Shown here: piece by piece, positions 3,850-62,929 of the stretch
Position numbering within the stretch: the first letter of the stretch is position 1
Layout: the number at the start of each line of letters is the position of its first letter
NCBI RefSeq assembly: GCF_009914755.1
Contig: NC_060936.1
Direction: 5' to 3' (one strand)
DNA: 64,000 bases
Source of the DNA: the human T2T-CHM13v2.0 reference genome, Homo sapiens
Program-made: the position numbers and the translations under genes
Notes under the pieces: model-generated
The model's input: the letters and a program-made list of their open reading frames with translations, nothing else
The model's database searches: none
What the model was told of the DNA's origin: nothing

Positions 3850-4020
3850 AGCCGGCTCTGAAGTCAGACACACCATGGTTGGATCCTGGCAATTCCTGAC
3901 ATGCCTCTATGAGCCTCGGTTTCCTCGACCATGAAAGGAGATAGTAATAGCACTTGCTTCCCTGGGCTGTTGTGAAGATTAAATGAAGTTCAGCACAAGG
4001 CAAGGACTCCATAAGTGATA
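3850..4020 (+). mobile_element. MIR fragment
   Basis: gagcctcggtttcctc...gggctgttgtgaagattaaatga MIR core. Confidence 0.65.
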
Positions 4021-4059
4021 CCAGTTTTACTTTTGTTTTGGCTCCACTCTGCCTGTCCT

Positions 4060-4077
4060 TAGCGCCCCCTGGCCACT
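4060..4077 (-). promoter_or_regulatory. CTCF-like motif
   Basis: Minus strand AGTGGCCAGGGGGCGCTA: exact CCAGGGGGCGCTA 3' core, mismatches in the 5' CC positions. Confidence 0.4.
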
Positions 4078-4329
4078 AAACACAGAGTGATGGGGAGAAA
4101 AGGAATCAGAGCCCTACACTTCCTTCGGCTGTGCCAGTTATTCCGGCCTATGCTGCTGAATTTGAAGCTAAACTCAGAAATCTGCACTCTGTAAACATAT
4201 CTATGACTTTAACTAGAACCACTGGTGTTTCGGACCAGAAATGGACTTAGTGATCCTAGATTCTGATCTCCTCCATTTGGAGTTGGTGGAAAATGAGTGA
4301 GAGAACATCCCTGCTTCCCTGCCAAAACC

Positions 4330-10210: not shown

Positions 10211-12281
10211 TCAGTGCTCTTTCTTCTTATGCCATGCTCGGCCATGAGGAGAAATCCTGAAGTTCTGCACATTCTTTGAAAAAACACAGTGATGGAAGTG
10301 AGACAGATTGTGGGCACAGGGCCATAGTCCTGTTGAATCTGCACTTGTTCCACAAGGTTTGAGTTGTTCCCTCAGACTTTCAGAAAATCATTGTTGTGCT
10401 AATGTTTCTTCTTGCTTTCTTTTAAGGAAAAGTGTTTGAGAAGAGTACAGCACAGCCACCACCATTTTTTCCTAGGTCAACAAGCATGCCTGTGTTCTGA
10501 TAATTAAGAGTCCTAATGATACACATCTAATGGTAAAAAGTTCAGGGTTACTGACTTTAGTCATGGCTGGATCCAGGTGTTTAACATGATTTTATCAGGA
10601 AGTTGCTTCTCTCTCTGCCTCTGCCTTCCTTGGCATTGAATTCATTTTTAGGATGTGTGGGGGTTTACTGTTGAGGTGGTCACTGGCAGCTCTAGGTTTA
10701 TGTTCTCACAAATGAATGACTCTTTCTTGATCACACCAGCAGTACTTCTAGGATTATCTCTTATTGGACCAATTTATGTCCCATTTCTACTGCTGAGCCA
10801 TTTCATCAGTTCATTGTTAAACCATTCAGACAAAATACATTGACTGCTTTCCATGTTCCAGCAGCCACACACTTTTTATGAGGAGCCTTCAAATATTAAA
10901 ATAAAGGAATACTAGCAGTATTTTTTAGGAATAATGTGTTTTTCAAGTTCAATGCTATATTACATTAAGCACTGTGAAGCCAGGCTGTGGGAACAATAAA
11001 GCTTTTTTTGATGAACCTCAAAATTGCAAATTGAGGTGGTGAATGACAGTCATCTCCTTTTCTCTGAGGAACCCAAATGTCAGAATGCACCCATGTCTGA
11101 GGTCATCCTTCCTTTGAAATACCTGCCACGATGACTGCAGCTCCTGCAGGTTTCCCTCCCCAGGTGAGTCTGGGCATCCCTGTGGGAATCCTTGCCCATT
11201 CCACACACCCATCTAGTTGCTGCCTGCCTCTGCTGGCTCCAGGACTGCTGCTGTCTTCTTTCCATGTGCTGCTGCTTGCCCCTGGTTGACTTTCAGCTGA
11301 CACAGGAAAGCTCTTTTTGAAGCTGCTGCCATTCCTTCCTGTATAGAATCCAGGACTGTCCTGTTTCCTATAGTAATGGCAAAGATTGGGCTGAGTCTTT
11401 TGACAGGGTTCTACTGGATATTTTGGGAGAGAACTACAAGGATGAGAGAAACCTACACTTACTACCAGATAGAATTGGGCTCAGAGGTTCCTTTCCTGGG
11501 GCTCTCTGAAGGGTTCTCTCTTACTCTTGTCCATCTCATCTGCTCCAACAGAAGTGTCCTCTAGTGTGTCTGTGTCTCTATGTCCAGGTTCCAGTGAGCG
11601 CAGGGCTCAGAGACATGAAGGAGTAAGTCATGCCTCACTCATCCCGGGCTAAGGCTTTAATTTCCTATCTCAGCACCTACTTCGTCCCAGCATAGTTAAA
11701 AATACGAATATTCATTCCCTTCAGGGAAGACCTGCTTCTTGTCGCTACACAGAACTTTACTCTTTAGCCTTCAGTAGATCAAGGTCACTAATACGTAAGT
11801 CACAAGGTCACTAATACATAATATATAAGTCCATATAGCAATCCATTTCCCAAAATGTGTGTTTTTCAGTCTTAAATAACAGCACAGTGGTATAGCAGCA
11901 ACAGGTCCATGCTGAGATGCACCAAACGCAGTCCTGCTTCTCTTCCTTGTCTCGTCCTCTGTGAGGGGAACAGATGGGGACCTTTAACATTTCCTTCCAA
12001 GCACCTGTCTATTTGATTTCTGATCCTCCTGCAAACTATCTTTTGAAATGGAACATACCCAACTCTGAAAGAATAAAAAAATGTTTAGCTATGGTAGTCG
12101 ATGAAATCCTCACAGAAAAGAAACTTTTTTACCCCCAAAGGCAATAGTGTTCACAGAGACATAGCTTTAGGAGGCTCTGAGCATAACCAAACAGGTATTG
12201 AGCTTGTTTGTCTAAATTAGATGTATTTAATCTATCGGATTCCTGACTTTCTCCAGATGTTCTTGCTTTACTTTTGCATAT

Positions 12282-12344
12282 TGTACTAGTTAGTGTTCTC
12301 CAGAGAAACAGAATCAATAGATTTACTTACTGATTGATTTTATT
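12282..12344 (-). mobile_element. MLT2 (ERVL) LTR, left part, split by L1 insertion
   Basis: tgtactagttagtgttctccagagaaacagaatcaatag is the MLT2 terminus; continues at 19591. Confidence 0.8.
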
Positions 12345-12705
12345 TTATTTTTTTCTTGAATAAAGCATGGTATAGTCATTAGTTACAACCCTTAGAACAG
12401 TCATTAGGCCAGTCATGCCATAAGACAAGCCCTCAACTCCATCTGTGGCAAGGGGATTTGTTTGCCTGGACTTTTGGAAAATACTAGGATTCTAATTACA
12501 CCCCAAATTCAAATTGTGTGGGTGTTGCTTTCTTTTCCTGAATCAGATAATACAAGCTGATATAAAGCAGATAATAAAAACGTCATACTTCAAAGGCCTT
12601 GTGAACCAACATCCTTTCACAATTTTTAGATGAGATTTTGAATGTATAAACTTTCCCTGCAAACATGTTCTAGGGATGACTCAGTTTCTTTTAAAATCTG
12701 TGTAA

Positions 12706-13004
12706 GGCTGGGCGTGGCAGCTCAAGCCTGTAAATCCCAGTACTTTGAGAGGCCAAGGAGGAAGGATGGCTTGAGGCCAGGAATTCGAGACCAACCTGGA
12801 CACCATAGTGAGACCCCCGTCTCTACAAAATTTTTTAAAAATTTGCCAGATGTAGTGCTCTGTGCCTGTAGTTCTAGTTGCTTGAGAGGCGGAGGCGAGA
12901 GGATTGCTGGAGCCCCAGAGTTCAAGGTTTCAGTGAGCTGTAATTGTGCTACTGCACTCCAGCTTAGGCAACAAAGCCAGACCTCATCTCTTAAAGAAAA
13001 AAAA
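12706..13004 (+). mobile_element. AluJ within transduced segment
   Basis: Diverged dimer, ggatggcttgaggccaggaattcgagacc (J-type), A tail. Confidence 0.85.
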
Positions 13005-13237
13005 CTTCATAAACAGCTCAATGTTAGTGAATTTTCACTGACTATATTAGAAGACACTGAAAATAATTCTGCCAAGAAATTCTCTGCAGAAACTTAGACA
13101 ATTTCTGAACCACCTTTAAATCCTCCTATTGACGGAGGCTTGGAGGGCATTGTGTTAGAGGGGCACGTGCCACTGGTTGGCTACTCTGAGGCAGACTCTG
13201 CACCCAGCAGTGAATATTTGTGTGGTTTTCTCCACAG

Positions 13238-13357
13238 GTCCCGTGGGAAGATCTCCGTTATCTCTTTGATGAGATCATGTATGGAGGCCACATCACAGAT
13301 GACAGGGATTGCAAACTGTGTCGGGTGTATTTAGAAGAATTCATGAATCCATCTCTG
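13238..13357 (+). pseudogene. DNAH11: Orphan single-exon copy of axonemal dynein heavy chain (DNAH11-like), 120 nt
   Basis: ttttctccacag|GTC...CTG|gtaag; translates [40 protein letters not shown] versus recalled DNAH11 [40 protein letters not shown] (37/40); no neighbouring dynein exons seen in window. Confidence 0.85.
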
Positions 13358-13660
13358 GTAAGACATTTGTAAATTAATTAACTTGTAATTTCACTGAGGA
13401 AAAAATTCTGGTAAGAATTTTATAAACTAATTATACTATGGGTAATTCTTTTTTTTATTCTTATACTTTAAGTTTTAGGGTACATGTGCACAACTTGCAG
13501 GTTTGTTACATAAGTATACATGTGCCATGTTCGTGTGCTGCACCCATTAACTCGTCATTTAACATTAGGTATATCTCCTAATGCTATCCCTCCCCCCTCC
13601 CCCCACCCCACAACAGGCCTGGGTGATGTTCTCCTTCCTGTGTCCATGTGTTTTCATTGT

Positions 13661-17486
<3,826 letters not shown>

Positions 17487-17549
17487 TATGATGTTAGCTG
17501 GTTATTTTGCTCGTTAGTTGATGCAGTTTCTTCCTAGCCTCGATGGTCT

Positions 17550-18566
17550 TTACAATTTGGCATGTTTTTGCAGTGGCTGGTACCAGTTGTTCCTTTCTAT
17601 GTTTAGCACTTCCTTCAGGAGCTCTTTTAGGGCAGGCCTGGTGGTGACAAAATCTCTCAGCATTTGCTTGTCTGTAAAGTATTATATTTCTCCTTCACTT
17701 ATGAAGCTTAGTTTGGCTGGATATGAAGTTCTGGGTTGAAAATTCTTTGCTTTAACAGTGTTGAATATTGGCCCCCACTGTCTTCTGGCTTGTAGAGTTT
17801 CTGCCAAGAGATCATCTGTTAGTCTGATGAGCTTCCCTTTGTGGGTAACCCAACCTTTCTCTCTGGCTTCCCTTAACAGTTTTTCCTTCATTTCAACTTT
17901 GGTAAATCTGACAATTATGTGTCTTAGAGTTGCTCTTCTTGAGGAGTATCTTTGTGGTGTTCTCTGTATTTCCTGAATCTGAACGTTGGCCTGCCTTGCT
18001 AGATTGGGGAAGTTCTCCTGGATAATATCCTGCAGAGTGTTTTCCAGCTTGGTTCCATTCTCCCCGTCACTTTCAGGTACACCAGTCAGATGTAGATTTG
18101 GTCTTTTCACATAGTCCCATATTTCTTGGAGGCTTTGTTCATTTCTTTTTATTCTTTTTTCTCCAAACTTCTCTTCTCGTTTCATTTCATTTATTTGATC
18201 TTCCATCACTGATACCCTTTCTTCTAGTTGGTCGAATTGGCTGCTGAGGCTTGTGCATTCTTCACGTAGTTCTCGTGCCTTGGTTTTCAGCTCCATCAGG
18301 TCCTTTGAGGACTTCTCTGCATTGGTTATTCTAGTTATCCATTCGTCTCATCTTTTTTCAAGGTTTTTAACTTCTTTGCCATGGGTTCGAACTTCCTCCT
18401 TTAGCTCGGAGTAGTTTGATCATCTGAAGCTTTCTTCTCTCAACTCGTCAAAGTCATTCTCCGTCCAGCTTTGTTCTGTTGCTGGTGAGGAGCTGCGTTC
18501 CTTTGGAGGAGGAGAGGTGCTCTGATTTTGAGAATTTTCAGTTTTTCTGCTATGTTTTTTCCCCAT
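17550..18566 (-). pseudogene. L1 ORF1, disrupted
   Basis: ATGGGGAAAAAACATAGCAG start; premature TGA near 18420; ORF 17682..18296 is ORF1p-like. Confidence 0.92.
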
Positions 18567-19141
18567 CTTTGTGGTTTTATCTACCTTTGGTCTTTGATGA
18601 TGGTGACGTACAGATGGGTTTTTGGTGTGGATGTCCTTTCTGTTTGTTAGTTTTCCTTCTAACAGTCAGGATCCTCAGCTGCAGGTCTGTTGGGGTTTGC
18701 TGGAGGTCCACTCCAGACCCTGTTTGCCTGGGTATCAGCAGCAGAGGCTGCAGAACAGCAGATATTGGTGAACAGCAGATGTTGCTGCCTGATCGTTTCT
18801 CTGGAGGTTTTGTCTCAGAGGAGTACCCGGCCATGTGAGGTGTCAGTCTGCCCCTACTAGGGGGTGCCTCCCAGTTAGGCTACTCCGGGGTCAGGGACCC
18901 ACTTGAGGAGGCAGTCTGTCCATTCTTAGATCTCCAGCTGCATGCTTGGAGAACCACTACTGTCTTCCAAGCTGTCAGACAGGGACATTTAAGTCTGCAG
19001 AGGTTTCTGCTGCCTTTTGTTTGGCTATGACCTGTCCCCAGAGGTGAAGTCTACAGAGGCAGGCAGGCCTCCTTGAGCTGCGGTGGGCTCCACCCAGTTT
19101 GGGCTTCCCAGCCACTTTGTTTACCTACTCAAGCCTCGGCA

Positions 19142-19324
19142 ATGGCGGGCGCCCCTCCCCCAGCCTCACTGCCGCCTTGCAGTTTGATCGCAGACTGCTG
19201 TGCTAGCAATGAGCGAGGCTCCGTGGGCACAGGACGCTCTGAGGCAGGTGCAGGATACAATCTCCTGGTGTGCCATTTGCTAAGACCATCAGAAAAGCAC
19301 AGTGTTAGGGTGGGAGTGGCCTGA
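19142..19324 (+). other. L1 antisense ORF0, truncated to 60 aa
   Basis: MAGAPPPASLPPCSLIADCCASN... matches primate ORF0 N-terminus; ends early at TGA. Confidence 0.75.
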
Positions 19325-19590
19325 TTTTCCAGGTGACGTCTGTCACTCCTTTCCTTGGCTAGGAAAGGGAATTCCCTGACCCCTTGTGCTTCCTGGGTGA
19401 GGCGATGCCTTGCCCTGCTTTGGCTCACACTTGGTGCACTGCATCCACTGTCCTGCACCCACTGTCTGACAATCTCCAGTGAGATGAACCCGGTACCTCA
19501 GTTGGAAATGCAGAAATCTTTCATCTTCTGCGTCGCTCATGCTGGGAGCTGTAGACTGGAGCTGTTCCTATTCGGCCATCTTGGCTCCAC

Positions 19591-20127
19591 CTGATTGATT
19601 TTATTAATTATGGGAATTGGTTCACATGGTTATGAAGGCTGAGAAGTTCCACCGTATGATATTTGCAAGCTGGAGATCCAGGAAAACTAGTGGGGTAATT
19701 CAATCCAAGTTTGAAGGCCTGAGAACTTAGAGGGTAGGAGGGTGTGTTGATATAAGTCCTGGACTCTGAAGGCCAAAGAGCTTGGTGTGAGAAAGCAGGA
19801 GAAGATAGATGTCCCTGTTAAAGGAGAGAGAGAATTTGCTCATCCCTGATCTCTTTGTCCTATTCAGGCCTTCTACAGATTGGATGATGCCCGGCCACAC
19901 TGGGGAGGGCAGATCTGCTTTACCAATCCAAATATGAACTGGATATTCTGCCAATCCAAATATGCCAATCCAAATACGAACCTCTTCCTGAAACACCGTC
20001 ACAGGCACATAGAAATAACGCTTAACTAATAATGTTAAAATTTAGTATTAAATAATAATGTTTAAAATAATGTTTATAGGGGCACCTCATGACCCAGTCA
20101 GGTTGACACATAAAATTAACTTTTACA
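19591..20127 (-). mobile_element. MLT2 LTR, right part
   Basis: ggaattggttcacatggttatgaaggctgagaagttcc...ccagtcaggttgacacataaaattaac. Confidence 0.85.
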
Positions 20128-22247
20128 TGTAGCTAAAAAATCATTGATATGGTTTTCTTGAAGAAAGAAAGAAGGAAAGAAAGAAAACCTGAAAAATGGT
20201 TTGGCTTATCCCAAAGGTGAGATCAGGTTTTGGTCAGGTTCCTAGCTGGCACACTCAAGAATCTTCCATGCACAATCCTACCTTAACTCTCATATTTTTA
20301 TCCTCTACTACTAGCCAGTGTGTCATTGGCTTCAGCTAGAACAAGACCTTCACTCTCCCTTGTAGGTTCTGTGCCAATTCAGCCTCCACACTTTTATTTA
20401 TGTTGTGATACCACTGGGTTCCCTCTCAAATTCTGTCCAAATCCCATCTATCCTTCAAGGGCCTAAAGTCAACCTTGTCTAGGAAATCCTCCCCAACTAG
20501 CACGCTGAATTTCCATCATGTTTTATTTCTCTCAACAATTTGGACTTATTTAAGTTGCAGATAGGAAAAATGAGGTGAAAGGTCTATTATCTAACTTCAT
20601 TATTTTAAAAGAGGGAACAGCTTTGACTAAACACACCTTGATTTGTCCATTGAGGGTACAAGAAAACTCAAAAGGCATGGGTTTTGGTGGGCTCAGAGGA
20701 ACAAAGGGAGATGGTTCAGTTGCTCCGACTGAGGGAAAAAAGAATCATTGGTTATCTGCCTCTGGTGGGGGAGTAGTGGGGAGAAGAGAAAAGAAGAGAG
20801 GTGATGAGGAGGAGTTGTGGGGAGGAGAAGGAAGAACCAGTGAGATCAGCTGAGGTGGGGCTTCTGAGAGCTGAAGAGCAAATTCCCCATGGCGAAGGGC
20901 CTTTACAAGGGGGAGTGTCTGATATTCATTGTGAAGTTGTCTTGTGCTTTGTTGATGTCATTCCTTTTCTCTGCTTCCCCCACACCTCAAGGAAAGTCTG
21001 ACACTCTCACAAGAGCCTTGAGCTGGCAGGTTTTTTGCAGGGAATTGAAGAATGAGCTGGGTTTTATAGCTGGGTTGACAGAGTGTGAATATGAAAGCAT
21101 GGGCGAAGAAAAGCAAGAGGCTGGACATAATGACTGCACCCAGACTTTGGCGAAATCTTTGGGAAGAATCTTTGAGGAGTTCTAGTTGATTGTAACCATA
21201 TCTCAGGGGCTCACAATGGGGCTTCTCTGATTATAGTCCCAAGGTCCCACTCCTCCAGAAAGCTACTTCTCATTCTTTCTTTGTTCTTTCTTCTTCATTC
21301 TTTCTCACTTTCTATGATGTCTCCTCCCTATTCCTTTCCCGCTCTTGTTTTATCCTGTCTTATTTACAGCAATTTGGCTTCTCTCATCCTTTTATCATCC
21401 TTCTCTGTAAGCACGATAAAGACCTGGTAATGAACCAAATGATCAAGAGATACTTCCTTTTGGAATAATGGGAGGTAGAATGCAGAGGAGGTAGACTGCA
21501 AATCTTTATAGTTTAATATATTTTTGTATCCATCTTACACTCATCTGTACAAACACATGTATACATATAGGTCTTATTAGAACCCTCAATTTTTAAGTTC
21601 TATGACAGTAGGGACCATGGCTTTTTCATAAGTACCCTTTCTGTCCCCTCACAACAATCCAGCGTGGAACCAACCATATAGCCCTTAATCAATGAATTAT
21701 AGAGGACCTTTAGTGAGTTACATGACATCTTGGGAGGAGGGAGGAGATAGAATGGAGAAGGGGATGGGATTGAAATTTATAGAGCCTCTGTTGCATGCCA
21801 GGCAGAGTACAAGGCACTTTACATGTAACATCTACAGTATACTTAATGCCCACTATGCATCCAGCATGCTATGCAAGTTCTTATTTAATTCTTACTGCTG
21901 GACCATGTTACTCAATTTCAGGAGTTGTGCAATATGGCGCCCATGTTCATAACCATCATGTAACACAGATATCATGAGTACTATTGTACAGGTGAGGAGT
22001 GTGGGCTTCCAAGAAGCATTAACTCTGTCAAGTTTCCATAGCTAGATTTGCAGAAACGTAATATTTGCCCTGGTCTTTTTGACTCCATGGCCGTGGTCTT
22101 TTTTTCTCACTTTACCACAAAACAAATCTATTTCAAATATTTGATGATAAGATATGTAGAAGCCAGGAATGAGGAAGCCGGTGCTCATACCCAATATGGT
22201 ATGGAGTAAGAAAGGAATGGGTGGACACAGGATGACACATTCCACTC

Positions 22248-61010: not shown

Positions 61011-62929
61011 GCAGACTCCTGAGTTCTTATACATCAAGTAAGGCTGAACTGGGAGAATCTGGGAAGCTGGATTGCAGTGCCCTCTCTATTAACTCCCAAA
61101 GGAAAATGATATAATTTGAGAGTATGAGCTGATGCTAGGACTCTCTCTTCTTTCTTACATTATCTTCATGGAACATTTTGGTCATGTACAGATACGAAAG
61201 AGTCCCCAGAATGTCTTCCAAAGGAATTTCAGGACCCTAAAGCCTGGAAGCATCAGAAAACATTAGTCATCTGGATCACTGAACCAGAGCACTGCTTTGA
61301 AATGTAAAGGATTCCTGCATGGATGTCCACTCCACCCAGAAGACCGTCATTGTTGCTGGTAGGGTGTAATCTACAATTTGTGGCCTTCACCATTGTGTCA
61401 TGCATTGATTCCTACATCAAGAGCCACGTGGGGTACATGTCATTTTCCTTCTCTTTACAAATGAGAAAATGAGGCTCAGATTAAATTACTTGCCCACGTT
61501 CATGCAGCTAGTAATGGAGAGATGTGGAATACAAAGCCATATTATTTCTTAATTCAAATGCTGTGTTCTCAGCCACGATGCTATCATGCCTGCAAGTAGA
61601 CATTTGCTGATTGAATGGAGTTGAATCACACTACAGGAGTGAGTGTGGATAAGAGCCAAGTGTCTAGTACAGACAGAAATGTGCAGGAGTAGAGAGAAGG
61701 GTGGATTGCCGGGAGAAAGTGTGGCACTGCCATCAGACTGTAGGTGGCCTCGCCATTGGGTCAAGCAAGTATTTGGTGCTGGGGAGTATGGAGGGGGCAC
61801 ACGGGCCTTCTCAGGCAGCCCAAGAAGGACGAGGCCTTATAGGAAAACTGACTTAAGATGAACCCTGCCAGAAAGGGCCACTCCGTCACCAGCCTTGTCT
61901 GAGGTCATATTTCAAAGACTGGCTCAGGGCCACTGGCTGGGGTGCAGGGCTGTGAGATCATGGCTGAGCAATCTGACTTTTAAAAAATATAAGGACCAAC
62001 TTGGGAGTTTTATCGCAGTTCTGCGTTCTGCCGCCCAGGCATGAAGTCAGCTGGCCTGCTTGTGACAGGGAGCATTTCACTTGTAATTAGCTGGTTTTTT
62101 TTTTTTTTTTTTTTTTAATATTCTGCCTAAACTGCGGTGTGGTGTGAGTGAGCCCGCTCCCTTGGAGCTGCCCCACAGCGGTAGCGGAGGTGAGTCATGG
62201 CCATAAAATCTGGAAAGCTCGTAGGGGGATGGAGGGCGGTGGAGAAATATAAATTATTGTGATCGTCTTTCAGGAGCGCTCGAGTTAATTATTGTACTTT
62301 CGCCAGCTGCGTTGTGCCTTCATCAATGCCGAGCCAGAAGTGATGGTTTTAGTGGGGAAAGAGTCGTTCTTTAATGGGGCAGAGGCCCACGAAGCCCTGT
62401 GTTCTTTTGAGGGAGGTTGGGTGCATGAAATTCCCAGCACCAGCTGGAACCTGTGCGGATTTGCTCTGAGACACTTGGGTGTGAGCAGCGTCACGTTTTC
62501 TTTATTTTTCTAAAACAAATAAATCTGGCTTCGTTCTCCACCTGCCAGGGCTGGCAGGCAACCCATTCTTAGTTATGTCTTTTTTGATGGGGCAGGGGGG
62601 GCAGTGAGGGGTTCTTTCTTTCTTTTTTGGGGGCATAAGGAAGCCCTGGGAATTAGGTAATTCAGCAAGACCTAAAGGCACCTTCCTGGCCTTGGGTCCA
62701 CTATGAAGAAATAATTGCTCATTGCCTGCAAAGTACCATTTTGAAGGGGCTCCTCATCTTCCTCTATCCCAACCCTGGGCCAGGGGGTCTGGGAAGAGGC
62801 TCCCACAGCTTGTGACCTTGTGTTATCCCTAGGCCCAAGCTTCATTATCCACTATCTGGTGCCGTAGGTCTCCACTATCAGAGACTTTTAAACCACGGTT
62901 TCTTCCCCAATCTCAAGGAAAACACATAA

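What the first reader, a model, noticed from the sequence alone, without database searches (positions are those of the whole stretch)
12330..19605. Full-length L1 with a ~1.1-kb 3' transduction, bracketed by one 15-bp TSD inside an MLT2 LTR
Seen: the L1's own poly(A) (13449-13456) has no copy of the 5' flank beside it. The 5' flank CTGATTGATTTTATT (19591-19605) reappears exactly at 12330-12344, next to a second T-run. Removing 12345-19605 rejoins the two halves of one MLT2 LTR, and the site reads TT/AATAAA on the minus strand, close to the L1 endonuclease consensus TT/AAAA. Established: L1 read-through mobilises 3' flanking DNA. Inference: 12355-13448 is a tag from the donor locus, identifying the parent element. 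No canonical AATAAA is visible just before the distal tail.
Basis: partly seen in the sequence, partly recalled or inferred. Interest (0 to 1): 0.88.

Follow-up and report, generated by a model that had tools for sequence, protein, structure and literature searches.

The report
Dead L1 carrying a dynein exon
An old, inactive L1 jumping gene on chromosome 12 brought about 1.1 kb of the DNAH11 gene from chromosome 7 with it, including one whole exon: a well-known kind of event, and a clean natural example of it.

Summary
The 15-mer occurs exactly twice in the window, at 12330-12344 and 19591-19605. It brackets a 6134-nt minus-strand L1, the L1's own A-run, 1.1 kb of non-L1 DNA and a 10-nt A-tail. 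The L1 alone has no target-site duplication (TSD).

The 1.1 kb has one other copy in the genome, chr7:22019693-22020796 inside DNAH11. It is 96% identical and antisense to the gene.

Three things are new:
- The donor site holds no L1 in this assembly. It reads as an empty TT/AAGA site 94 nt past an exon, so the tag names the parent locus, not a surviving parent.
- The tag carries a complete DNAH11 exon with both splice sites. RefSeq's Gnomon model uses it as an exon of lncRNA LOC105369958.
- Neither the tag nor the donor has a poly(A) signal before the distal tail.

Age is roughly 10-18 Myr (3.55% divergence). The L1 keeps the ~129-nt 5'UTR segment that L1PA3 and younger families lost, so it is L1PA4-like. 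Both reading frames are broken.

The flanks are adjacent parts of one old LTR-like repeat. The name MLT2 could not be tested. This is a known mechanism and a new example.

The parts
12282..12344 (+). Left (5') part of the interrupted old LTR-like repeat. Its last 15 nt are the TSD copy.
   Evidence: Window 12279-12321 matches 38 other genomic places at 84-97% identity. In 18 of 29 family copies found with the right flank, this piece lies directly upstream on the same strand. It starts with TGT.
12330..12344 (.). TSD copy next to the distal A-tail.
   Evidence: Exact 15-mer, one of only two in the window.
12345..12354 (-). Distal A-tail of the composite: 10 nt, A7-T-A-A in L1 sense.
   Evidence: Read directly. 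The three innermost A could be templated by the donor, because the chr7 alignment reaches 12352.
12355..13448 (-). Transduced tag: a copy of DNAH11 intron-exon-intron DNA from chr7:22019693-22020796, antisense to DNAH11.
   Evidence: One alignment block, window 12352-13450. 39 mismatches in 1099 aligned positions (3.55%) and 5 gap columns. Only two genomic copies. The donor lies inside DNAH11.
12706..13005 (+). Alu inside the tag, also present at the donor, so older than the event.
   Evidence: Recognised as Alu by reading and from recall. Aligned through in the chr7 copy. Masked as repeat in RefSeq.
13238..13357 (+). Copy of one whole DNAH11 coding exon (40 codons, dynein AAA-lid region) with its acceptor AG and donor GT. 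Annotated as an exon of lncRNA LOC105369958.
   Evidence: Pfam AAA_lid_11, E = 1.6e-12. The donor exon matches DNAH17 residues 4077-4113 and DNAH9 residues 4100-4138 in solved structures. 36 of 40 residues are identical to the donor exon. Paralogue hits in DNAH17 and DNAH9. The exon bounds equal those of Gnomon model XR_007082997.1.
13449..13456 (-). The L1's own A-run (8 nt), with AATAAA formed at the junction of L1 end and A-run.
   Evidence: The two outermost A are shared with the donor sequence.
13457..19590 (-). Full-length L1 body, 6134 nt, L1PA4-like. Both reading frames are broken, so the element is dead.
   Evidence: Open pieces on the minus strand hit the three L1 ORF1 domains, Exo_endo_phos and RVT_1, in that order. 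Lower bounds on interruptions: 8 in the long frame (3 stops and 5 frameshifts on one least-cost path) and 4 in the short frame (3 stops and 1 frameshift), with approximate bounds. The first 900 nt match 39 other copies at 91-92%.
18694..18819 (-). 5'UTR segment of about 126 nt that young L1 5'UTRs lack. It matches in size the 129-bp segment reported as deleted in L1PA3 and later families.
   Evidence: 3 of 3 young 5'UTRs run straight from element position 771 to 898. The deletion is described in passages of PMC7110667.
19591..19605 (.). TSD copy at the L1 5' end.
19606..20127 (+). Right (3') part of the interrupted old LTR-like repeat, ending in ACA.
   Evidence: 38 other copies at 68-83% identity, nearly all starting at window 19607, out of 1684 first-look candidates. 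Matches reach 20116-20127 in 15 of 29 loci. Sequence.

Best explanation
This is one L1 retrotransposition event with a 3' transduction.

The inferred sequence of events:
1. An L1 once sat in a late intron of DNAH11 on chr7. It was antisense to the gene and 94 nt beyond an exon, at a TT/AAGA site.
2. Its transcript ran past the L1's own weak poly(A) signal. It continued for about 1.1 kb through the exon (read backwards), intron DNA and an Alu.
3. The RNA ended at a site with no recognisable poly(A) signal and received a short A-tail.
4. This RNA was reverse-transcribed at a TT/AATAAA nick in an old solo LTR on chr12. That produced the 15-bp TSD around the whole 7.2-kb composite.
5. The parent L1 was never fixed, or was otherwise lost. 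The chr7 site is empty in this assembly.

The event is roughly 10-18 Myr old. The L1 is of a pre-deletion, L1PA4-like family and is now dead.

As a by-product, a complete DNAH11 exon with both splice sites was delivered to chr12 on the strand opposite the L1. A predicted lncRNA uses it there as an exon.

Shown: the anatomy, the TSD, the target site, the donor locus, the divergence and the absence of an L1 at the donor. Inferred: the former presence of the parent L1, the read-through transcript and the real use of the exon.
For: - TSD: the 15-mer occurs only twice in the window. It brackets L1 plus tag, while the L1 alone and the tag alone share only chance-level 7-mers with their flanks.
- Target site: TT/AATAAA.
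- L1 3' end: it carries AATAAA and an 8-nt A-run, followed directly by non-L1 DNA and a second A-tail.
- Donor: the tag has exactly one other genomic copy, inside DNAH11. It aligns as one collinear block at 96%.
- Direction: chr7 is the original. The sequence there is continuous with the gene, its exon is shared with DNAH9 and DNAH17, and homology stops at the two A-runs on chr12.
- Orientation: the A-tail is on the DNAH11-antisense end and the exon is unspliced, as expected for read-through from an antisense L1.
- Donor breakpoint: it reads TT/AAGA in L1 sense. A 5-of-6 or better match to TTAAAA occurs at 1.5% of positions in that locus.
- Precedent: published catalogues accept donors that are absent from the reference (PMC9311842 passages).
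Against: - No L1 lies next to the donor sequence, nor within 7.6 kb on the side where the parent L1 would lie or 1.2 kb on the other, in this assembly. The parent is therefore inferred, not seen.
- None of 16 recalled poly(A)-signal hexamers lies in the last 60 nt of the tag, in either copy, or in the next 63 nt of the donor.
- The distal tail is only 10 nt, and 3 of those could be templated.
- No sibling insertion shares the tag.
- The TT/AAGA match at the donor has a chance probability of a few per cent once the 0-2 nt ambiguity of the junction is allowed for.
Confidence: 0.85

Rival explanations
1. A chimeric retrocopy made by template switching. The L1 reverse transcriptase began on a separate polyadenylated RNA antisense to DNAH11. 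At that RNA's 5' end it jumped onto the poly(A) end of an L1 RNA and copied that in full. No L1 ever sat in DNAH11.
For: It would explain the empty donor site in this assembly and the absence of siblings. It also gives one TSD around both parts. That such chimeras exist is recalled (Buzdin and colleagues, 2002-2003), not read here.
Against: It needs an independent antisense RNA whose 5' end happens to fall at a TT/AAGA site, which only about 1.5% of positions match that well. It also needs a jump onto the very end of a full L1 RNA, including its A-run. The poly(A)-signal problem at the distal end remains the same. A read-through transcript from an antisense L1 supplies promoter, orientation and junction in one step.
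Confidence: 0.09
2. Two separate events, or a DNA-level duplication. Either the DNAH11 fragment reached chr12 first and an L1 later landed at its edge (or the reverse), or a block of L1 plus flank was copied as DNA.
For: Nothing specific. It is considered only because the donor lacks an L1.
Against: Neither the L1 alone nor the tag alone has a TSD; the longest shared words are 7, the 95th percentile of random pairs. The composite has an exact 15-bp TSD, an endonuclease-type target and an A-tail at exactly the right end. Homology with chr7 stops at the A-runs.
Confidence: 0.03

Closest known systems
L1 3' transduction (Moran 1999; Goodier 2000; Pickeral 2000, seen only as reference-list entries in PMC4859970; mechanism as described in PMC9311842 passages)
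   Same: The L1 with its own 3' end and A-run is followed by unique flanking DNA and a second A-tail. One TSD surrounds both. The target is of the endonuclease type. The tag maps to one other locus on another chromosome.
   Different: The donor L1 is absent from the assembly. There is no poly(A) signal before the distal tail. The event is old (about 10-18 Myr) rather than one of the recent or polymorphic events that catalogues cover. The tag holds a complete coding exon.
Exon shuffling by L1 retrotransposition (Moran et al. 1999, recalled; natural cases recalled are the dispersed CFTR exon 9 copies and the SVA-borne AMAC1 copies)
   Same: A host exon with intact splice sites was moved to a new locus by an L1 transcript, and there it lies inside another transcription unit.
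   Different: The exon is antisense to the carrier L1. The recipient is a predicted lncRNA, not a protein-coding gene. The exon copy has drifted (4 of 40 codons changed), so no protein function is implied.
Orphan or non-reference-donor transductions (PMC4859970 table rows and PMC9311842 passages)
   Same: The source element is not in the reference at the donor locus.
   Different: In orphan transductions the L1 body is missing from the new insert. Here the L1 body is complete and it is the donor copy that is missing.
L1PA4 / early L1PA3 families (PMC7110667, PMC7449397 and PMC4083085 passages)
   Same: The element keeps the 5'UTR segment whose 129-bp deletion was fixed in L1PA3 and later lineages. 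Its age estimate falls inside the printed 30-10 Myr window for L1Pa7-L1Pa3. It fits the published L1PA4/L1PA5 primer pair best, with 1 mismatch in 41 nt.
   Different: The subfamily was not assigned against a labelled consensus library. The L1PA2/L1PA3 primer pair also fits with only 2 mismatches in 38 nt.

Membership tests
L1 3' transduction | L1 3' end with its own A-run, then non-L1 DNA, then a second A-tail | tested here: met
   A-run at 13449-13456, tag at 12355-13448, tail at 12345-12354.
L1 3' transduction | One TSD brackets L1 plus tag; none brackets the L1 alone | tested here: met
   (exact 15-mer, two copies). (L1 alone 7, tag alone 7, null maximum 10 in 1992 pairs).
L1 3' transduction | Endonuclease-type target site (TT/AAAA-like) | tested here: met
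   TT/AATAAA, 5 of 6; background 1.1% of positions. The consensus itself is recalled.
L1 3' transduction | Tag maps to a second locus, collinear and at high identity | tested here: met
   chr7:22019693-22020796, 39 mismatches in 1099 positions, the only other copy.
L1 3' transduction | An L1 sits immediately upstream of the tag at the donor. This corroborates the call but does not define it, since catalogues accept non-reference donors (PMC9311842). | tested here: not met
   A single alignment block between window 11500-20500 and chr7:22018500-22028400. The donor reads as an empty site.
L1 3' transduction | Poly(A) signal 10-40 nt before the distal tail (usual but not universal; one of seven donors in PMC9311842 Table 5 also lacked one) | tested here: not met
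   0 of 16 recalled hexamers in the last 60 nt, in both copies.
L1 (LINE-1), primate L1PA lineage | ORF1 domains, endonuclease and reverse transcriptase in that order on one strand, plus an L1PA-type 5'UTR | tested here: met
   Pfam Transposase_22 (9.3e-57), Tnp_22_trimer, Tnp_22_dsRBD, Exo_endo_phos and RVT_1 (2.5e-28). 5'UTR is 91-92% identical to 39 other copies, out of 7184 first-look candidates.
L1PA4-like (pre-deletion) subfamily | Keeps the 129-bp 5'UTR segment lost in L1PA3 and later | tested here: met
   3 of 3 young 5'UTRs lack element positions 772-897. All 39 nearest kin span it. The deletion is described in PMC7110667.
L1PA4-like (pre-deletion) subfamily | Diagnostic positions against a labelled consensus library (RepeatMasker/Dfam) | not testable with these tools
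   No repeat library is available. As a proxy, mismatches to published primer pairs (forward + reverse): L1HS/PA2 2+2, PA2/PA3 1+1, PA4/PA5 1+0, PA2-6 1+1. This leans towards L1PA4/5 but does not decide.
MLT2 (ERV-L solo LTR) | Both flanks are adjacent parts of one interspersed repeat unit | tested here: met
   17 of 29 loci and 18 of 29 loci hold both parts, same strand and right order. In 12 of the 18, the spacing is 19-41 nt, against 21-39 nt in the window once the insert is disregarded.
MLT2 (ERV-L solo LTR) | TG...CA termini and a short TSD of its own | tested here: inconclusive
   It starts TGT at 12282 and ends ACA at 20127. The 5 nt outside each end differ, which is uninformative at about 70% family identity and with bounds good to a few nt.
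MLT2 (ERV-L solo LTR) | Match to the MLT2 consensus in a labelled library | not testable with these tools
No repeat library. Naming through inner genes was not attempted.

The most novel reading that the evidence does not exclude
This would be a fixed, natural case of L1-mediated exon shuffling. A complete DNAH11 coding exon, carried backwards behind an L1, would really be spliced into a chr12 lncRNA in living cells. The parent L1 would have been lost from the population because it sat 94 nt from that same exon in an essential ciliary dynein gene. The locus would then show both the birth of a new exon and the loss of a harmful parent insertion.
Probability: 0.4. Interest if true: 0.55.

Novelty: new member of a known kind. 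Interest (0 to 1): 0.4.

Why it matters
L1 3' transduction has been known since 1999 and is common, so the mechanism is not new. This locus has three useful features:
- It is an unusually clean old example. Every junction is still readable: an exact 15-bp TSD, two A-runs, and endonuclease-type sites at both the target and the donor.
- It moved a whole coding exon, with its splice sites, into another transcription unit. That is the outcome predicted by the exon-shuffling model, and few natural examples are known.
- Its donor site is empty, so the tag preserves a record of an L1 allele in DNAH11 that no longer exists in this genome.

For annotation, the chr12 exon copy is 96% identical to the DNAH11 exon and could attract mis-mapped DNAH11 reads or variant calls.

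Tried and rejected
Sibling insertions with the same tag: none. Each non-Alu part of the tag found only chr12 and chr7; the proximal part also found exon paralogues in DNAH17 and DNAH9. Matches in closed regions are not shown.

Parent L1 at the donor: none within chr7:22018500-22028400.

TSD around the L1 alone or the tag alone: none above chance.

Poly(A) signal before the distal tail: none of 16 recalled hexamers, in either copy. Loss of a signal by mutation on chr12 is therefore rejected.

Subfamily typing with published primers: leans to L1PA4/5 but is not decisive. In the 29 nearest kin only the primers near the 5' end fall inside the stored loci.

Three-point branch lengths on the 5'UTR:
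- This element's terminal branch is 4.4% over all columns and 2.6% over non-CpG columns.
- The kin have medians of 4.1% and 2.0%.
- The non-CpG value is larger than half the non-CpG tag divergence (about 1.5%). The branch also includes differences between source lineages, so I did not use it for dating.

Papers:
- Jacobs 2014 (PMC4268317) and Khan 2006 (PMC1356131) are not held. The place of the 129-bp deletion and the per-subfamily ages are therefore taken from passages of other papers or from recall.
- Searches for this event in print found nothing on it. 'DNAH11, transduction, LINE-1, exon shuffling' gave 119 papers with at least 3 of the 4 terms, and none of the 15 listed holds DNAH11. 'LOC105369958' gave 0 papers. 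'DNAH11, transduced, retrotransposon' gave 1 unrelated paper.
Supplementary Table 1 of PMC12432230 (primer targets) and Tables S2/S3 of PMC9311842 (transduction lists) could bear on the typing and on prior listing. I did not see them.

Naming the LTR: no labelled repeat library is available. I did not try inner genes.
Full report
1. THE OBSERVATION

The 15-mer CTGATTGATTTTATT lies at 12330-12344 and 19591-19605. It occurs nowhere else in the 64-kb window, even with one mismatch allowed. Shuffles expect 0.02 matches, and 0 of 100 gave two or more. Between the two copies, read on the minus strand, lie four parts:
- an L1 body, 19590 down to 13457 (6134 nt);
- the L1's own 8-nt A-run, 13456-13449;
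- 1094 nt of non-L1 DNA, 13448-12355;
- a 10-nt tail reading A7-T-A-A, 12354-12345.

I compared 50-nt stretches at the possible junctions. The whole composite shares the 15-mer. The L1 alone shares only a 7-mer with its flank, and so does the tag alone. In 1992 random pairs of 50-mers from the window, the 95th percentile is 7 and the maximum is 10. There is therefore one target-site duplication (TSD), and it belongs to L1 plus tag together.

In L1 sense the target reads TT/AATAAA, a 5-of-6 match to the recalled TT/AAAA consensus. Matches that good occur at 1.1% of window positions.

2. THE L1

Open pieces on the minus strand hit these Pfam families, in this order:
- the three L1 ORF1 domains (Transposase_22 at 9.3e-57, the trimerisation domain and the dsRBD-like domain);
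- Exo_endo_phos;
- RVT_1 (2.5e-28).

Both frames are broken. The long frame falls into at least seven open pieces. A least-cost count gives at least 8 interruptions, 3 stops and 5 frameshifts on one such path. The short frame has at least 4, 3 stops and 1 frameshift. These are lower bounds, and the bounds of the short frame are approximate. The element is dead. I give no places.

The first 900 nt match 39 other genomic copies over their full length at 91-92%. These were the 40 scored out of 7184 first-look candidates.

I tested one character described in print. Passages of PMC7110667 say that a 129-bp 5'UTR deletion arose and was fixed in L1PA3 and later lineages, in the human-orangutan ancestor. 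They also say that gibbon L1PA4 lacks the deletion and that L1PA5 was active in the human-rhesus ancestor. I found young copies with a published L1HS 5'UTR primer, which has 333 exact matches in the genome and 0 for its reversed control. I fetched three of their 5'UTRs. All 3 of 3 run straight from this element's position 771 to position 898. The element therefore keeps a segment of about 126-128 nt that the young copies lack. That the segment is the same as the published one rests on its size and on its being in the 5'UTR; the original paper is not held.

Mismatches to the published primer pairs, forward + reverse:
- L1HS/L1PA2 pair: 2+2;
- L1PA2/L1PA3 pair: 1+1;
- L1PA4/L1PA5 pair: 1+0;
- L1PA2-6 pair: 1+1.

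In the 29 nearest kin, the L1PA4 forward primer fits with 0-1 mismatch in 26 of 29. The L1HS forward primer has 2 or more mismatches in all 29. My name for the element is therefore L1PA4-like. An early, pre-deletion L1PA3 or an L1PA5 is not excluded.

3. THE TAG AND ITS DONOR

The two non-Alu parts of the tag each have exactly one other copy in the genome, at one place on chr7. The whole tag, window 12352-13450, aligns to chr7:22019693-22020796 as one block, + to +:
- 39 mismatches in 1099 aligned positions (3.55%; 3.64% after Jukes-Cantor correction), with 5 gap columns;
- 31 mismatches in 1067 non-CpG positions (2.9%).

The site lies inside DNAH11, which is on the + strand. The L1 is on the window's minus strand, so the L1 and its A-tail are antisense to DNAH11.

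The tag holds an Alu that is also present at the donor. It also holds a 120-nt stretch, 13238-13357, flanked by AG and GT. That stretch translates into 40 residues of the dynein AAA-lid domain (Pfam AAA_lid_11, 1.6e-12). The donor version matches DNAH17 residues 4077-4113 and DNAH9 residues 4100-4138 in solved structures. The same stretch found the DNAH17 and DNAH9 genes in the DNA search. It is therefore a real, conserved coding exon near the 3' end of DNAH11.

The chr12 copy differs at 5 of 120 nt and 4 of 40 residues. Three of the four changed residues are identical between DNAH11 and DNAH17. The changes are therefore on the chr12 side, as expected for a copy under no constraint.

Chr7 is the original. 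Its sequence is continuous gene sequence, while homology on chr12 stops at the two A-runs.

4. WHAT IS NOT THERE

No L1 lies beside the donor sequence. The comparison of window 11500-20500 with chr7:22018500-22028400 gave a single block, the tag. The donor runs on without any A-run or L1 remnant.

In L1 sense the breakpoint reads CATT/AAGAATTG, that is TT/AAGA, 94 nt past the exon. A 5-of-6 or better match to TTAAAA occurs at 147 of 9896 positions of that locus, or 1.5%. The junction is ambiguous by 0-2 nt because two A are shared, so the chance is a few per cent.

This is what an empty allele looks like at the place where a parent L1 once inserted. The tag therefore names the parent locus, not a surviving parent. 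Published catalogues also list donors that are absent from the reference (PMC9311842 passages).

I add that none of 16 recalled signal hexamers lies in the last 60 nt of the tag. That holds for both the chr12 copy and the donor, and for the next 63 nt of the donor. The signal was therefore not lost by later mutation. Of the 10-nt tail, 3 nt could be templated. How the RNA got its 3' end remains open.

No sibling insertion carries the tag. Closed regions are not shown.

5. THE TARGET

The left flank, window 12279-12321, matches 38 other places at 84-97%. The right flank matches 38 other places at 68-83%, nearly all starting at window 19607. These were scored out of 1684 first-look candidates.

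I searched the two pieces apart:
- 17 of 29 loci found with the left piece also hold the right piece downstream on the same strand.
- 18 of 29 loci found with the right piece hold the left piece directly upstream. In 12 of those the gap is 19-41 nt, against 21-39 nt in the window when the insert and one TSD copy are disregarded.
- The other 12 and 11 loci showed only one piece at the thresholds used.

The flanks are thus adjacent parts of one old repeat unit. It spans about 12282-12344 plus 19606-20127, starts TGT and ends ACA. The L1 landed about 63 nt from its 5' end.

Pairwise identity of about 70% indicates a very old family, far older than the L1. No labelled library is on hand, and I did not go to inner genes.

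6. AGE

Both copies of the tag have drifted since the event, so each lineage carries about 1.8%. With recalled neutral rates of 0.10-0.17% per Myr per lineage, that gives about 10-18 Myr.

Three printed time frames fit:
- L1Pa7-L1Pa3 emerged 30-10 Myr ago, with L1Pa5 peaking at about 25 Myr (PMC7449397 passages).
- The KAP1-bound L1 lineages, which that paper identifies as L1PA6 to L1PA3, entered the genome 26.8-7.6 Myr ago (PMC4083085 passages).
- The 129-bp deletion was fixed in the human-orangutan ancestor (PMC7110667 passages).

The exact 15/15 TSD is unremarkable at this divergence: by my own arithmetic the chance of no change is about 0.58.

I expect the insert in great apes, perhaps in gibbon, and not in Old World monkeys. 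This could not be tested here.

7. MECHANISM AND RIVALS

The best reading is a single retrotransposition of a read-through transcript from a now-lost L1 that sat antisense in DNAH11 (confidence 0.85).

The main rival is a template-switch chimera between a separate DNAH11-antisense RNA and an L1 RNA (0.09). It explains the empty donor. It needs an RNA 5' end that happens to lie at an endonuclease-type site, and a jump onto the very end of a complete L1 RNA.

Two separate insertions or a DNA-level copy (0.03) are contradicted by the single TSD and by the absence of any TSD around either part alone.

8. THE EXON ON CHR12

RefSeq's only transcript of LOC105369958 is the Gnomon model XR_007082997.1. 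It uses 13238-13357 as an internal exon, with exactly the bounds of the DNAH11 exon. The L1 lies in the following intron.

If the model reflects real RNA, an exon moved by L1 transduction, antisense to the L1, is being spliced into a new transcript. The evidence here is one computational model, and I could not see its read support.

I found nothing in print on this event or on this lncRNA.

9. VERDICT

The mechanism is well known, so this is a new member of a known kind.

What lifts it above routine is the captured, possibly exonised DNAH11 exon and the vanished parent. What remains unexplained is the 3' end of the read-through RNA.

Interest: 0.4.

Noticed in passing
window 19949-19976, 20054-20076 and about 20020-20078: The right part of the LTR holds two small tandem duplications (14 nt x2 and 12 nt x1.9). 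It also holds an AT-rich stretch that most family copies skip; their matches jump from about 19923-20029 to about 20118.
   Followed up: partly
window 20161-20186: An (AAGA)n microsatellite, 6.5 copies, lies just past the LTR's 3' end.
   Followed up: no
window 13238-13357 versus L007 2084-2203 (chr7): The chr12 exon copy is 96% identical to the DNAH11 exon (5 of 120 nt differ). It could attract mis-mapped DNAH11 reads, or the reverse. 4 of 40 codons are changed, 3 of them at residues identical between DNAH11 and DNAH17.
   Followed up: partly
window 3910-4204 and 61298-62077: RefSeq lists two enhancer elements in the window: a HepG2 tiled region and an hESC H3K27ac-H3K4me1 element.
   Followed up: no
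window 12282-12344 and 19613-20127: RefSeq's soft-masking covers the L1 and the Alu but not the old LTR flanks. Scans that rely on masking would see the LTR as unique DNA.
   Followed up: no
window 12544-12578: A 12-nt unit is repeated 2.9 times inside the tag. The chr12 and chr7 copies differ by a 2-nt gap just after it.
   Followed up: no
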